A stretch of DNA of 64,000 nt. It comes from Escherichia coli (lineage in GTDB: Bacteria > Pseudomonadota > Gammaproteobacteria > Enterobacterales > Enterobacteriaceae). Every line of letters begins with the position of its first letter. Within the stretch, counting starts at the first letter, position 1. The stretch lies in assembly GCF_003334765.1 (NCBI RefSeq), contig NZ_QOWT01000023.1. The stretch is one strand, 5' to 3'. Both the position numbers and the translations under genes were made by a program. Under the pieces are notes generated by a model. It was given only the letters and a program-made list of their open reading frames with translations. It was not told where the DNA came from and ran no database searches. Below, piece after piece: positions 1-3,863 of this stretch.

Positions 1-231
1 TGAATTACTGATATGTTCAAAATTTACAGACAAAACCTGCGGGGCAGGACTCGACGGGTCTGACTGAACGGCATCAGACATAACACTGACTGAAACCATC
101 GGCTGATTAGGGAATGGTATAGGGAAGTGTCCACTGATAAAGCGGGTCGTGTTTCCTGAAAAAGTGCCAAACTGAACAATATATCCACCTGGTAGCCTGA
201 ACCATCCCGAACCAGAAGCGAATGCTCCCAT
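1..231 (-). CDS. Partial ORF of unknown function, N-terminal 77 codons (MGAFASGSGWFRLPGGYIVQFGTFSGNTTRF...), runs off the window start; lies antisense upstream of the prophage sheath fragment
   Basis: Hand translation of the minus strand from ATG at 231-229 to position 1 shows no stop; not in the ORF track because it is incomplete. No family recognised. Confidence 0.2.
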   Translation of the reverse strand, partial: MGAFASGSGWFRLPGGYIVQFGTFSGNTTRFISGHFPIPFPNQPMVSVSVMSDAVQSDPSSPAPQVLSVNFEHISNS

Positions 232-540
232 ATGGTCTGCACGGGCGATGATGCCGATACAAAAATGTTTCCTCTTAATAAACCCGTGCTGATCACTGAT
301 GTGCTGACTGCCAGCGGTAAAGCGGGTGAGTCCGGTACTCTGGCCCGTTCGCTGGATGCCATCGCTGATCAGGCAAAACCCGTGACCGTTGTTGTGCGTG
401 TGCCGCAGGGTGAAACGGAAGACGAAACCACGACCAATATCATCGGCGCTGTGACTGCTGAAGGTAAAAAAACAGGCATGAAAGCCCTGCTACACGGTGA
501 AAAGCATTACGGGGGCGTTGCGCCGCTGGGTGGAAGCTAA
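232..540 (+). pseudogene. P2-like tail sheath (gpFI-like) internal fragment, truncated at both ends
   Basis: ORF translation (MVCTGDDADTKMFPLNKPVLITDV...AIADQAKPVTVVVRV) matches my recollection of the P2 FI N-terminal region from about residue 30; no FI-like sequence upstream of 232, and the frame runs into the tape-measure ORF. Confidence 0.55.
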
Positions 541-1975
541 CCCGGAACTGACAGGCACACTGATGAAAGTAGCGGCTGTTGTGGCTGCGGTTACCGTAGG
601 CCTCGGCACCTTAGCGGTGGCGCTGGCTGCAGTGCTGGGGCCGCTGGCAGTGATCCGTCTGGGATTCTCTGTGCTGGGTATCAAAACGTTACCTTCTGTT
701 ACGGCAGCAGTAACTCGAACCAGCAGCGCGTTGTCCTGGCTGGCTGGCGCACCACTGGCACTGCTGCGACGCGGGCTTGCTTCATCGGGCAACGCAGCGG
801 GTTTACTTACTGCTCCGTTGTCATCTTTGCGTCGCACGGCATCACTGACGGGGAATGTCCTGAAAACTGTAGCAGGTGCGCCGGTTGCACTTTTGCGGTC
901 TGGATTATCCGGTTTACGTGCTGTTGCTGTGATGTTTATGAATCCACTGGCAGCACTACGCGGTGGGCTGGCTGCCGCAGGCGCGGTGCTGCGTGTGCTC
1001 GCATCCGGCCCGCTGGCGATGTTGCGCATTGCCCTGTATGCCGTATCTGGTCTGTTAGGTGCTCTGCTCAGTCCGATAGGTCTTGTGGTTACTGCACTGG
1101 CGGGCGTGGCGCTGGTTGTCTGGAAATACTGGCAACCCATCACCGCATTTCTCGGTGGCGTGGTGGAAGGATTCAAAGCGGCGGCAGGTCCCGTCAGTGC
1201 AGCATTCGAACCACTTAAGCCTGTGTTTCAGTGGATTGGCGACAAAGTGCAGGCGTTGTGGGGCTGGTTTACTGATCTGCTGACGCCCGTTAAGTCGACC
1301 TCTGCCGAACTGCAGAGCGCAGCGGCAATGGGGCGACGATTCGGGGAGGCACTGGCGGAAGGGCTGAATATGGTCATGCATCCGCTGGACTCCCTGAAAT
1401 CCGGCGTTTCCTGGTTGCTGGAGAAACTCGGCATTGTCAGTAAAGAGGCCGCAAAGGCAAAACTGCCGGAAAGCGTGACGCGTCAGCAACCTGCGACGGT
1501 GAATGCAGACGGTAAAGTGATGATGCCATCGGGTGGTTTCCCGTCATGGGGATATGGCTTTGCGGGGATGTATGACAGCGGTGGGTATATCCCGTACGGG
1601 CAGTTTGGCATCGTCGGTGAAAACGGGCCTGAAATTGTCAACGGCCCGGCAAACGTGACCAGCCGGAGAAATACAGCTGCACTGGCTGCCGTTGTTGCCG
1701 GAATGATGGGCGTTGCTGCCGCGCCAGCAGAGCTTCCACCGTTGCACCCTTTGGCACTTCCCGCGAAAGGCGGCGAAGCGATGGTGAGTCGTGCAGCCAC
1801 TGTGCCGCCCGTTCAGCGGATTGAGGCACCGACGCAGATCATCATTCAGACGCAGCCAGGACAAAGTGCGCAGGATATTGCGCGGGAGGTGGCACGTCAG
1901 CTTGATGAACGTGAACGCAGGCTGAAGGCAAAAGCCAGGAGTAACTACAGCGATCAGGGGGGATACGACGCATGA
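497..1975 (+). CDS. Phage tail tape measure protein (gpT-like), probably only the C-terminal ~490 aa
   Basis: Gly/Ala/Leu-rich hydrophobic repeats typical of tape-measure proteins; sits directly upstream of gpU/gpD homologues; shorter than P2 gpT (about 815 aa). Confidence 0.6.
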   Translation: MKSITGALRRWVEANPELTGTLMKVAAVVAAVTVGLGTLAVALAAVLGPLAVIRLGFSVLGIKTLPSVTAAVTRTSSALSWLAGAPLALLRRGLASSGNAAGLLTAPLSSLRRTASLTGNVLKTVAGAPVALLRSGLSGLRAVAVMFMNPLAALRGGLAAAGAVLRVLASGPLAMLRIALYAVSGLLGALLSPIGLVVTALAGVALVVWKYWQPITAFLGGVVEGFKAAAGPVSAAFEPLKPVFQWIGDKVQALWGWFTDLLTPVKSTSAELQSAAAMGRRFGEALAEGLNMVMHPLDSLKSGVSWLLEKLGIVSKEAAKAKLPESVTRQQPATVNADGKVMMPSGGFPSWGYGFAGMYDSGGYIPYGQFGIVGENGPEIVNGPANVTSRRNTAALAAVVAGMMGVAAAPAELPPLHPLALPAKGGEAMVSRAATVPPVQRIEAPTQIIIQTQPGQSAQDIAREVARQLDERERRLKAKARSNYSDQGGYDA

Positions 1976-2457
1976 TGATGGTGCTGGGATTGTACGTGTT
2001 TATGCTGCGCACTGTGCCGTATCAGGAACTGCAGTATCAACGCAGCTGGCGACATGCGGCAAACAGCCGGGTCAACCGACGTCCGTCCACGCAGTTTCTG
2101 GGACCGGACAACGACATGCTGACGCTTTCTGGTGTTCTTATGCCAGAGATAACGGGCGGCAGGCTGTCGTTGCTGGCTCTGGAGCAGATGGCAGAACAGG
2201 GAAAAGCATGGCCCCTGATTGAAGGCAGCGGCACGATTTACGGCATGTATGTGATTGAGGGACTGAATCAGACTAAAACGGAGTTTTTCCGCGATGGTAT
2301 GCCGCGCCGGATTGAGTTCACCCTGTCGCTCAAACGGGTGGATGAATCCCTGTCCGATATGTTCGGTGATCTCAGTGCGCAGCTGAATAATTTGCAGGAT
2401 ACGGCAACGTCTGCCTTAAGCGATATCAGTAAAACGGTGGGAGGGCTGCTGTCGTGA
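1972..2457 (+). CDS. P2 gpU-like tail protein
   Basis: 161-aa ORF in the P2 order T-U-D-ogr; 4-bp overlaps with both neighbours. Confidence 0.7.
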   Translation: MMMVLGLYVFMLRTVPYQELQYQRSWRHAANSRVNRRPSTQFLGPDNDMLTLSGVLMPEITGGRLSLLALEQMAEQGKAWPLIEGSGTIYGMYVIEGLNQTKTEFFRDGMPRRIEFTLSLKRVDESLSDMFGDLSAQLNNLQDTATSALSDISKTVGGLLS

Positions 2458-3554
2458 ATTTCAGCTCTGAACTGCTTAACAAAGGCAACAAAACTCCCGC
2501 ATTCAGCATCAGTATTGAAGGCAAGGATATCACCACTGTGCTGGACAACCGCCTGATGGGGCTTACGCTGACGGATAACCGGGGCTTTGAAGCGGACCAG
2601 CTTGATCTGGAGCTGGACGACGCTGACGGAAAAATCGTGCTGCCGCGCCGTGGTGCGGTCATTACGCTGGCGCTGGGCTGGAAGGGGCAGCCGCTTTTCC
2701 CGAAAGGGGCATTCACGGTGGACGAGATTGAACACACTGGCGCACCGGACCGCCTGACTATCCGGGCGCGAAGCGCTGATTTTCGGGAAACGCTGAATAC
2801 CCGTCGTGAAAAATCGTGGCACAAGACCACGGTCGGGGAAGTGGTGAAGGAAATAGCTGCGCGTCACAAACTGAAGATGGCACTGGGTAAAGACCTGTCG
2901 GATAAACCCGTGGAGCATATAGACCAGACTAATGAGAGTGACGGCAGTTTTTTGATGCGGCTGGCGCGCCAGTACGGTGCCATTGCATCGGTGAAAAATG
3001 GCAATCTGTTATTCATCCGGCAGGGACAGGGCAAAAGCGCCAGCGGTAAACCACTGCCGGTGATCACTATCATACGTAAGGACGGCGACAGTCACCGCTT
3101 TACCCTGGCAGATCGCGGAGCTTACACGGGGGTAATTGCCAGCTGGTTGCATACCCGCGAACCCGCGAAGAAAGAAAGCACTACGGTGAAGCGTAAGCGC
3201 AGGACTAAGAAGCAGAAGAAAGAGCCGGAAGCGAAGCAGGGCGATTACCTGGTGGGGACGGATGAAAACGTGCTGGTACTTAATCGCACTTATGCCAACC
3301 GGAGCAACGCCGAACGAGCGGCAAAAATGCAGTGGGAACGCCTGCAACGCGGCGTTGCGTCATTCTCGCTACAACTGGCGGAAGGGCGGGCAGATCTCTA
3401 CACGGAAATGCCTGTGAAGGTCAGTGGTTTTAAACAGCCGATAGATGATGCGGAATGGACTATTACCACCCTGACGCATACTGTCAGCCCGGATAACGGT
3501 TTTACGACCAGTCTGGAGCTTGAAGTGAAGATTGATGATTTCGAAATGGAATGA
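2454..3554 (+). CDS. P2 gpD-like tail protein
   Basis: 366-aa ORF between gpU and ogr homologues, the position of gpD in P2-like phages. Confidence 0.7.
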   Translation: MNFSSELLNKGNKTPAFSISIEGKDITTVLDNRLMGLTLTDNRGFEADQLDLELDDADGKIVLPRRGAVITLALGWKGQPLFPKGAFTVDEIEHTGAPDRLTIRARSADFRETLNTRREKSWHKTTVGEVVKEIAARHKLKMALGKDLSDKPVEHIDQTNESDGSFLMRLARQYGAIASVKNGNLLFIRQGQGKSASGKPLPVITIIRKDGDSHRFTLADRGAYTGVIASWLHTREPAKKESTTVKRKRRTKKQKKEPEAKQGDYLVGTDENVLVLNRTYANRSNAERAAKMQWERLQRGVASFSLQLAEGRADLYTEMPVKVSGFKQPIDDAEWTITTLTHTVSPDNGFTTSLELEVKIDDFEME

Positions 3555-3647
3555 TTCTTCGCAATGGAGAACTTTTAAGTTTTCAAAATGGAATAATGCG
3601 GTATCATTATTGTGAATTTAGCAAAAATGGGGAGAACTCGAAAAATG

Positions 3648-3863
3648 ATGATTTGCCCACTGTGTGGAAGTGCCGCCCATACTCGCAGCAGTTTTCAGGT
3701 ATCTTCATTGACCAAAGAGCGTTACAACCAGTGCCAGAACATTAACTGCAGCCATACTTTTGTTACCCATGAAACTTTTGTTCGTTCGATTGCAACGCCA
3801 AAAGAGTCAAATCCGGTTCAGCCGCATCCAATGAAATCAGGACAGGTGGCGCTCTCTCTTTGA
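3648..3863 (+). CDS. ogr: Ogr/Delta-family zinc-finger late-gene transcription activator
   Basis: MICPLCGSAAHTRSS...ERYNQCQNINCSHTF has the Cys4 motif and spacing of P2 Ogr (CPLC...CQN.NC); about 72 aa; last gene of the P2 late region. Confidence 0.75.
   Translation: MICPLCGSAAHTRSSFQVSSLTKERYNQCQNINCSHTFVTHETFVRSIATPKESNPVQPHPMKSGQVALSL

What the first reader, a model, noticed from the sequence alone, without database searches (positions are those of the whole stretch)
1..3863. Degraded P2-like prophage: sheath-tape-measure fusion deletion but intact ogr
Only the distal late region survives (FI fragment, T fragment, U, D, ogr). The sheath-like ORF begins abruptly without its first ~30 codons and runs in frame into a tape-measure ORF lacking its N-terminal part; the tube and E/E' genes are missing. 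The tail module is therefore dead, yet the Ogr zinc-finger activator appears intact and could still trans-activate late promoters of P2/P4-type elements, including satellites.
Basis: partly seen in the sequence, partly recalled or inferred. Interest (0 to 1): 0.35.

Follow-up and report, generated by a model that had tools for sequence, protein, structure and literature searches.

The report
Recently broken P2-like prophage at rybB
This is the right end of an ordinary, recently crippled P2/186-like prophage inserted at the rybB small-RNA gene of a K-12-like E. coli; its late-gene activator ogr is intact, and one of its deletions starts at a spot in the tail-sheath gene where many unrelated prophages have also broken.

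Summary
The gene calls are right. The window holds a sheath fragment (codons 31-117), a tape-measure fragment (codons 532-1025), intact U and D, and an intact Cys4 ogr. Tube and E/E' are absent.

Three points are wrong or unsupported:
- The sheath and T fragments are not in frame. The sheath frame stops at 538-540.
- The window starts inside the prophage. Bases 1-233 are a tail-fibre cassette piece. Contigs 100% identical to the window carry at least 20 kb more prophage to the left.
- The prophage ends at about 3940, in an att core at the 3' end of rybB (3941-4019), not at 3863.

Two microhomology deletions (926 bp and 3425 bp) made the structure. The first also removed the invertase and the Ogr-dependent sheath promoter.

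Bases 491-4100 are identical to an intact prophage copy in another strain. The damage is therefore very recent, and an intact ogr is the default expectation, not evidence of selection. Cryptic P2 remnants at rybB are already described, so the finding is ordinary.

One thing is unexpected. The sheath-side breakpoint (…CTGYTA|) is shared to within 2 bases by eight DNA-verified independent deletions and about 13 distinct protein-level junctions. I could not explain this hot spot.

The parts
1..233 (-). Internal fragment of the alternative (invertible) tail-fibre C-terminal cassette, a gp53-like domain protein. Its 5' end was lost in deletion 1 and its 3' part is cut by the window edge.
   Evidence: 100% identical to L003 9001-9233, inside CDS 8932-9330(-) annotated as a gp53-like domain-containing protein.
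231..233 (.). Junction 1, with TAT shared by both parents. It marks a 926-bp deletion that removed the cassette's 5' end, the right invertase crossover site, the invertase gene, the TGT-N12-ACA late-promoter element and sheath codons 1-30.
   Evidence: L003 9234-10159 is missing.
232..540 (+). Chimeric 102-aa ORF: sheath residues Met31-Leu117 plus 15 out-of-frame residues read from T DNA, ending at stop TAA 538-540.
   Evidence: The exact protein is found in 97 blocks of public assemblies, with Pfam PF22671 Gp18_domIII_N.
491..492 (.). Junction 2, with TA shared. It marks a 3425-bp deletion of sheath codons 118-390, tube, E, E' and T codons 1-531. The sheath side is the recurrent breakpoint …CTGYTA|.
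493..1975 (+). Tape-measure (T) remnant, codons 532-1025. It has no native start; the only candidates are the internal GTG 497 and ATG 563.
   Evidence: Gene callers call a 470-aa ORF here.
1972..2457 (+). gpU-like tail protein, intact (161 aa).
   Evidence: Identical to the protein of intact copy L002. PF06995.
2454..3554 (+). gpD-like late control/tail protein, intact (366 aa).
   Evidence: Identical to the L002 protein. PF05954.
3580..3607 (+). Sigma-70-like promoter candidate for ogr (TTTTCA-16-TATCAT), in the same position as P2 Pogr and 186 pB. This is a consensus match only.
   Evidence: Position compared with the annotated P2 and 186 promoters.
3645..3863 (+). ogr: a 72-aa Ogr/Delta-family Cys4 zinc-finger late activator, intact.
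   Evidence: Alignment A1 shows C4, C7, C30 and C35 invariant, with 51-54% identity to P2 Ogr, PSP3 Pag and 186 B. 100% identical to the Ogr of several Klebsiella phage records. PF04606.
3941..3954 (.). attR core AACAAAAAACCCAT, shared by attL, attR and the empty K-12 site. This is the true right end of the prophage.
   Evidence: The 19-bp attR annotated for phage 4LV2017 lies at 3936-3954.
3941..4022 (-). rybB small RNA gene, intact. The prophage sits at its 3' end.
   Evidence: Rfam RF00110, 105 bits, 3941-4019. The K-12 annotation maps to about 3944-4022.

Best explanation
Window 1 to about 3940 is the right-hand end of a P2/186-like (Peduoviridae) prophage. It is integrated at the 3' end of the rybB sRNA gene, between rcdA and ybjL, in an E. 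coli almost identical to K-12.

The prophage entered intact and was then crippled by a few illegitimate deletions at 2-3-nt microhomologies. Two lie in the window:
- a 926-bp deletion that removed the tail-fibre invertase, the Ogr-dependent sheath-operon promoter and the first 30 sheath codons;
- a 3425-bp deletion from sheath codon 117 into the middle of the tape-measure gene, taking tube and E/E' with it.

A third deletion lies left of the window, in contigs identical to it. It fused a portal fragment to a truncated R and removed the head and lysis genes.

The element cannot make tails or particles (shown). U, D and ogr are intact only because the damage is so recent (shown: identical DNA to an intact copy).

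Ogr is predicted to work like P2 Ogr / 186 B, a Zn-finger activator acting at TGT-N12-ACA late promoters (inferred from homology). In this remnant its only surviving cis target is the V-W-J-I-H-G operon promoter, which lies outside the window. It could act in trans on an incoming P2-like phage or a P4-like satellite. Whether it is expressed depends on a 186-type CI repressor whose state in this lineage I could not determine (inferred).
For: - Homology and synteny with intact prophages and phages: 96% to Klebsiella phage 4LV2017, 100% to L002.
- Junction anatomy and deletion sizes.
- Frames.
- Window 491-4100 is identical to intact copy L002.
- The host flank is 99.987% identical to K-12, which has an empty site.
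- The junction ORF is in 97 assembly blocks and the portal-fragment ORF in 86.
- Left context comes from contigs 100% identical to the window.
- rybB and the att core. rybB is a published P2-like prophage site in E. coli W, B and Crooks (PMC3032704).
- Ogr's Cys4 motif is conserved and the protein is identical to that in phage records.
- The sheath-operon (PF-type) element TGTGTGAATAACGGTACA is present in intact relatives but falls inside deletion 1. There is no TGT-N12-ACA in window 1-4100. A PV-type element survives at L005 4691.
- The 186 annotation shows that pB is CI-repressed.
Against: - Nothing contradicts the degraded-prophage reading.
- The functional statements about Ogr rest on about 51-54% identity to characterised activators and on no expression data.
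- The CI/int end of this lineage was not reached.
- The ogr promoter is only a 9/12 consensus match.
- 'Random decay' is not the whole story for deletion 2, because its sheath-side end is a recurrent breakpoint.
Confidence: 0.9

Rival explanations
1. Deletion 2 is not a random decay event. It is the product of a site-directed DNA breakage or template-switch process that repeatedly generates a fixed 3' end at sheath nt 351 (…CTGYTA|) and joins it to variable downstream sites. This complements the best explanation rather than excluding it.
For: - Eight DNA-verified independent deletions in at least four sheath alleles and at two chromosomal sites end at L002 1127 (±2). They resume at L002 1699, 2187, 2906, 3977, 4551, 4739, 7430 and 7502.
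- Among 86 clusters of short sheath N-terminal fragments, 15 end at residue 117/118, with about 13 different continuations, against about 1 per position elsewhere.
- Junctions share 0-5 nt, mostly 'TA'.
- The site lies at an unpaired A in a predicted compound hairpin.
- A Mu-like prophage end is inserted 5 nt away in another genome.
Against: - No enzyme or motif was identified.
- There is no resemblance to the invertase crossover sites, to the gene A ori nick site or convincingly to attP. There is no inverted copy of the retained end that would mark a transposon.
- The hairpin z-score is modest (-2.6) and its outer stem is imperfect in other alleles.
- The protein sample was retrieved with a query that itself ends at residue 117 and contained only proteins of 179 aa or less. 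Some ascertainment bias is therefore possible, although it does not explain the peak relative to residues 119-180.
- In 985 complete-genome records only 6 are disrupted in this 261-nt segment.
- Pattern scans of viral, metagenome and species-representative genome collections found no further junctions.
Confidence: 0.5
2. ogr (with U and D) is retained because the host or a satellite benefits from it: a domesticated regulator, as proposed for other cryptic-prophage genes.
For: Many independently degraded copies at this site still carry ogr next to ybjL (L001, L003, L008, L015, L041, L042, L048). K-12 keeps an 'ogr-D'' remnant at cyaR (PMC3032704 Table 2). From my own knowledge, that remnant was reported to be functional (Slettan et al. 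1992, J Bacteriol 174:4094); the paper is not held in the library.
Against: - Here ogr, U and D are DNA-identical to an intact phage copy, so there has been no time for selection to be visible.
- ogr is the last gene before attR/rybB/ybjL, so any deletion that spares the host genes tends to spare it.
- The recurrent breakpoint lies upstream, so a mutational bias alone leaves the right end in place.
Confidence: 0.1
3. The junctions are assembly or chimera artefacts, or the sheath and T fragments form an in-frame fusion protein.
For: The window starts at an arbitrary point inside a repeated tail-fibre cassette. None of 5426 complete RefSeq E. coli genomes carries window 1-600 contiguously.
Against: - The exact junction ORF occurs in 97 blocks from NCBI, ENA and Logan assemblies, on contigs up to more than 1 Mb.
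- Three fetched contigs match the window at 99.99-100% over 10.5 kb.
- De Bruijn assemblers cannot join sequences on 2-3 nt of overlap.
- The frames differ by +1 and a stop follows 46 nt after the junction.
Confidence: 0.02

Closest known systems
Rybb* P2-like prophages of E. coli W, B and Crooks (Archer et al. 2011, BMC Genomics 12:9, PMC3032704, Table 2)
   Same: The same integration site (rybB ncRNA, between rcdA and ybjL) and the same phage type (P2-like).
   Different: This copy has its own set of deletions. In contigs identical to the window it carries a GAPS4 pair in the cargo hot spot, rather than the retron Ec86 of Rybb*B.
Klebsiella phage 4LV2017 (Peduoviridae, Elveevirus) and the intact E. 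coli copy L002 (Z1322HEC0001)
   Same: 95.9% (4LV2017) and 100% (L002) nucleotide identity over T'-U-D-ogr-att, with the same gene order and the same attR core.
   Different: Those are complete (sheath, tube, E, E', full T). The window copy lacks 3425 + 926 bp.
P2 Ogr / 186 B / PSP3 Pag late activators (Ogr/Delta family, PF04606)
   Same: 72 aa, the C-X2-C-X22-C-X4-C motif, encoded after D and before att, with its own promoter-like site in the D-ogr spacer.
   Different: Only 51-54% identical. Promoter specificity and regulation have not been tested. The cognate sheath-operon promoter has been deleted here.
E. coli K-12 'ogr-D'' remnant at cyaR (ogrK/yegZ)
   Same: A P2-family remnant reduced to its right end with ogr kept (PMC3032704 Table 2).
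   Different: It sits at a different att site and is far more reduced and older. The window element still has U, D and, outside the window, early, replication and baseplate genes.
Sp13, the defective P2-like prophage of E. coli O157 Sakai (Asadulghani et al. 2009, PMC2669165)
   Same: A P2-like prophage lacking most morphogenetic genes and predicted to be unable to act as a helper.
   Different: In Sakai the ogr homologue sits on the P4-like element. Here ogr is on the P2-like remnant, and no P4-like satellite is present in the window.

Membership tests
Ogr/Delta zinc-finger late activators (PF04606) | Four Cys in the pattern C-X2-C-X22-C-X4-C in a protein of about 72 aa | tested here: met
   C4, C7, C30 and C35 are invariant in the alignment with P2 Ogr, PSP3 Pag and 186 B. 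The precomputed Pfam PF04606 hit is on the identical 72-aa product.
Ogr/Delta zinc-finger late activators (PF04606) | Encoded at the right end of the late region, after D and before att | tested here: met
   ogr at 3645-3863 lies between D (ends 3554) and the att core at 3941. P2, PSP3 and 186 have the same layout.
Ogr/Delta zinc-finger late activators (PF04606) | Activates promoters carrying TGT-N12-ACA near -55 through the RNA polymerase alpha subunit | not testable with these tools
   Only the motif could be mapped. It is present upstream of the sheath in intact relatives and upstream of V in lineage contigs, and absent from window 1-4100.
P2-like (Peduoviridae) prophage | Late-gene synteny H-G-(invertase)-FI-FII-E-E'-T-U-D-ogr, with homologous proteins | tested here: met
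   The order is preserved apart from the two deletions.
P2-like (Peduoviridae) prophage | Complete and able to form particles | tested here: not met
   The sheath is truncated, tube, E and E' are absent and T is halved. Head and lysis genes are absent in contigs identical to the window.
P2-like (Peduoviridae) prophage | Flanked by att core repeats at a defined bacterial site | tested here: inconclusive
   The attR core at 3941-3954 matches attL of relatives and the empty K-12 site. The attL of this lineage lies outside the window and was not reached.
186-type immunity and late control (CI represses the ogr homologue B) | 186-like CI, Apl and CII genes, and CI operators at the ogr promoter | tested here: inconclusive
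   cII (PF06892) and DinI/Tum-like genes are present in lineage contig L014. CI (PF07022) is seen only in relatives. No operator motif shared between the D-ogr spacer and relatives' pR region was found.
RybB sRNA (RF00110) | Score above the Rfam gathering threshold over the full model | tested here: met
   105.3 bits against a gathering score of 40, model positions 1-79, window 4019-3941.
P4-like satellite (a possible trans target in the window) | A delta/ogr homologue, with psu, sid and alpha genes | tested here: not met
   There is no second Ogr/Delta homologue in the 64 kb. The serW island (41863-64000) has an integrase, DUF3987, a TOTE primase-helicase, IS elements and an autotransporter, with no psu/sid/delta.
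Serine-invertase (Pin/Cin/Gin-type) quasi-site recombination, as a cause of the junctions | Junction at or resembling the 26-bp crossover site, with a matching central dinucleotide | tested here: not met
   The crossover sites are at L003 7446-7469 and 9276-9299 (TTCTCCCAAACC-AA-…). Junction 1 lies 43 nt from the nearest one. The sheath hot spot shows no similarity and uses TA.
Rolling-circle Rep (gpA) nicking at a pseudo-origin, as a cause of the fixed end | Similarity of the fixed end to the ori nick site in gene A | tested here: not met
   P2: GCGCCTCG|GAGTCCTGTCAATAAC. Lineage: GCGCCCCTTGGACTCGTGGCAATAAC. Hot spot: AAGCCCTGCTA|TCTGCCCAGTCAC. No alignment between them.

The most novel reading that the evidence does not exclude
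Nucleotide 351 of the sheath gene of this P2/186-like phage family (…GAAAGCCCTGYTA|TCTGCC…) is a nucleotide-precise, polar hot spot for illegitimate recombination. A defined 3' end is generated there again and again and is joined to variable sites 0.6-6.4 kb downstream. This inactivates the tail operon in many independent lysogens. The cause could be a structure-dependent replication stall or hairpin-nuclease cut, or an as yet unidentified nicking enzyme. If so, it would be a built-in or host-imposed 'self-destruct' point that shapes how these very common prophages decay.
Probability: 0.45. Interest if true: 0.55.

Novelty: new member of a known kind. Interest (0 to 1): 0.3.

Why it matters
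As submitted, the finding matters little. Defective P2-like prophages at rybB, and P2 remnants that keep ogr, are already on record. This one is simply a young example, and its intact ogr is what you expect after so little time.

It is a useful annotation correction in four respects:
- the element is much larger than the finding's coordinates suggest;
- it abuts and preserves the sigma-E sRNA gene rybB;
- it has lost its own sheath-operon late promoter;
- the sheath and T pieces are not fused in frame.

The part that could matter is the recurrent breakpoint. If a single dinucleotide in the sheath gene accounts for a large share of tail-operon deletions across unrelated lysogens, prophage 'decay' in this abundant family is partly deterministic. 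There would then be a concrete DNA substrate on which to study illegitimate recombination, hairpin processing or a site-specific nickase in E. coli.

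Tried and rejected
1. Looked for the same double junction in 5426 complete E. coli genomes. None has it. I therefore used exact-protein look-ups, which found it in 97 assembly blocks.
2. Tried to walk left to CI, int and attL of this lineage using exact proteins. The proteins chosen are shared by tens of thousands of prophages, so the places returned were relatives, not the lineage. The left end remains unknown.
3. Looked for 186-type CI operators at the ogr promoter. Four AATGGR repeats lie at 3545-3632, but no matching motif occurs in relatives' pR regions. 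Dropped as unsupported.
4. Tested four causes of the fixed breakpoint:
   - invertase quasi-site;
   - gpA pseudo-ori;
   - secondary att site (only a CAGGCA…AAA…CCC likeness);
   - transposon end with an inverted copy upstream.
   None is supported.
5. Scanned for further junction forms with the pattern …CTGCTAV. Viral contigs gave 0, JGI metagenomes gave 1 hit that is just an SNP in an intact gene, and species-representative genomes gave 0.
6. Literature. Slettan et al. 1992 on functional ogr genes in K-12 and B is not in the library, so it is cited from my own knowledge only. I found no paper on a sheath-gene deletion hot spot.
7. Group II introns occur in a relative (L032), but no junction tail reads into an intron, so an intron-based explanation was dropped.

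Full report
**What is there**

ORF listing and BLAST show that window 1-4100 is the right end of a P2-family prophage followed by E. coli chromosome (ybjL 4099-5784, then ybjM, grxA, ybjC, nfsA, rimK…). Against an intact copy at the same chromosomal site (L002), the window aligns in two blocks:
- 231-492 matches sheath nt 90-351 at 100%.
- 491-4200 matches from the middle of the tape-measure gene through U, D, ogr and ybjL.

Bases 1-233 did not show up in the first search. They are 100% identical to part of the alternative tail-fibre cassette (a gp53-like domain protein on the minus strand), which lies just upstream of the invertase gene in intact relatives. So the window begins inside the prophage.

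**The two junctions**

- Junction 1 (231-233, TAT shared) corresponds to a 926-bp deletion. It removed the 5' end of the fibre cassette, the right invertase crossover site, the invertase gene, the late-promoter element and sheath codons 1-30.
- Junction 2 (491-492, TA shared) corresponds to a 3425-bp deletion of sheath codons 118-390, tube, E, E' and T codons 1-531.

'In frame' is wrong. The sheath frame stops at TAA 538-540 after 15 foreign residues. The T frame is offset by +1 and is closed just upstream of the junction.

**Is it real?**

None of 5426 complete RefSeq E. coli genomes has window 1-600 in one piece. However, the exact 102-aa junction ORF is recorded in 97 blocks of public assemblies, and three fetched contigs match the window at 99.99-100% over 10.5 kb. 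The structure is a lineage trait, not an artefact.

**How much prophage survives?**

The identical contigs continue leftward. In order, they carry:
- cII, several early genes, dam and the replication gene A;
- a DinI/Tum-like gene;
- a GAPS4 defence pair and a Vpar_1526-family gene in the P2 cargo hot spot;
- a 176-aa portal fragment fused next to a truncated R, which marks a third deletion that removed the head and lysis genes;
- S, a DUF6216 gene, and V, W, J, I, H and G.

'Only the distal late region survives' is therefore not correct. I could not reach CI, int or attL of this lineage. Relatives have them next to rcdA.

**Where it ends**

Rfam finds rybB at 3941-4019 on the minus strand, at 105 bits. 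Homology with the prophage-free K-12 site begins at about 3928 and is perfect from 3941. The 14-bp core AACAAAAAACCCAT is shared by attR, relatives' attL and K-12. The prophage thus sits at the 3' end of rybB, which stays intact. This site is already listed for P2-like prophages of E. coli W, B and Crooks (PMC3032704).

**Age**

- Window 491-4100 is identical, base for base, to the intact copy L002. U, D and Ogr are therefore identical proteins.
- The host flank 3965-41862 differs from K-12 MG1655 at 5 positions in 37.9 kb.

The insertion and all the deletions are therefore very recent. An intact ogr is the null expectation.

**Ogr**

The 72-aa product keeps C4, C7, C30 and C35. It is 51-54% identical to P2 Ogr, PSP3 Pag and 186 B, and 100% identical to the Ogr of several Klebsiella phage records. 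A weak sigma-70-like site lies at 3580-3607, where P2 and 186 have their ogr/B promoters.

There is no TGT-N12-ACA in window 1-4100. The sheath-operon element present in intact relatives falls inside deletion 1. A V-operon element survives outside the window.

In 186 the B promoter is repressed by CI. This family has 186-type early genes, so expression here probably depends on a repressor I could not inspect. The window contains no second Ogr/Delta gene and no P4-like satellite. Trans-activation is plausible by homology and by precedent for K-12 ogrK (my own knowledge; the paper is not held), but it was not tested.

**The unexpected part**

A different P2-like prophage, at ssrA in strain F719, has a sheath-to-T deletion whose sheath end is the same nucleotide (L002 1127) but whose T end differs.

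I searched the protein collection with the junction ORF. It returned 86 clusters of short sheath N-terminal fragments. Their sheath ends pile up at residue 117/118: 15 clusters with about 13 different continuations into sheath, tube, E', T and D, in and out of frame. Other positions have about one each. A smaller peak at residue 110 is an A7 homopolymer frameshift.

I fetched DNA for seven of these events. Together with the window, eight independent deletions end at L002 1127 (±2). They resume at 1699, 2187, 2906, 3977, 4551, 4739, 7430 and 7502, with 0-5 nt of overlap, usually TA. They occur in at least four sheath alleles.

Other observations on the site:
- It is an unpaired A in a predicted compound hairpin.
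- In one genome a Mu-like prophage end is inserted 5 nt away.
- I found no likeness to the invertase sites, the gene A nick site or attP, and no transposon-like inverted repeat.
- Pattern scans of three public collections added no cases.
- In complete genomes disruption of this segment is rare: 6 of 985 records.

The retrieval was seeded with a query ending at residue 117 and returned only short proteins, so some bias is possible. It does not explain the excess over residues 119-180. I regard the hot spot as probably real and unexplained.

**Verdict**

This is an ordinary, recently degraded rybB prophage, a known kind. The in-frame fusion and 'only the distal region survives' are wrong, and the significance of an intact ogr is overstated. 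The recurrent sheath breakpoint is the only feature worth further work.

Noticed in passing
window 3941-4022 (-): An intact rybB sRNA gene lies between ogr and ybjL. The prophage att core (3941-3954) overlaps its 3' end.
   Followed up: yes
window 491-492; L002 1127; L004 6262; L040, L041, L042, L043, L048, L049, L050: A recurrent, nucleotide-precise deletion endpoint at sheath nt 351 (…CTGYTA|) is shared by eight DNA-verified independent events and about 13 protein-level junction types. The mechanism is unknown.
   Followed up: partly
L047 6300-6480: In another genome a Mu-like transposable prophage end (TGATGCGCCGCGCGATAAATGCGCC…, next to a gin-like invertase) is inserted in the same sheath gene 5 nt from the hot spot. 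A second cluster (P0013) has the same foreign tail 2 codons further on.
   Followed up: partly
window 41863-64000: Homology with K-12 stops 14 nt into tRNA serW. What follows is a genomic island with a P4-type integrase (42023-43240), a DUF3987 protein, a TOTE-type primase-helicase (49150-51588), IS3-family fragments, an IS200 tnpA (54891-55493), IS2 and a 1363-aa autotransporter (58826-62917). ARAGORN finds no tRNA here, so the intact serW must lie beyond the window. 54 complete E. coli genomes carry the first 10 kb.
   Followed up: partly
window 3965-41862: The chromosome is 99.987% identical to K-12 MG1655 (5 substitutions in 37.9 kb). The host is therefore a very close K-12 relative that additionally carries the rybB prophage and the serW island.
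   Followed up: yes
L005 1-2600 / L014 10553-14721 (left of the window, in contigs identical to it): The prophage's cargo hot spot between DinI and the portal gene holds a GAPS4 pair (PF26115 PDDEXK_GAPS4 plus GAPS4b_N), a 227-aa ORF and a Vpar_1526-family gene. Relatives carry retrons, TIR/SEFIR, PIN, AIPR and other systems at the same place.
   Followed up: no
window 3545-3632: Four copies of AATGGR(R) lie in the D-ogr spacer around the ogr promoter candidate. They could be regulator sites, but no match was found in relatives' immunity regions.
   Followed up: partly
L032 5794-7726 and 14903-16837: A prophage of the same family carries two 99.8%-identical copies of a 1.9-kb element encoding a group II intron-type reverse transcriptase. 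One copy sits just after a terminator-like hairpin.
   Followed up: no
L001, L003, L008, L015, L017, L030, L035: Prophages at the rybB site are very often degraded in different ways: T-to-D deletions, head-gene deletions and an IS1 insertion. The family's cII protein is recorded in 48,746 assembly blocks.
   Followed up: no
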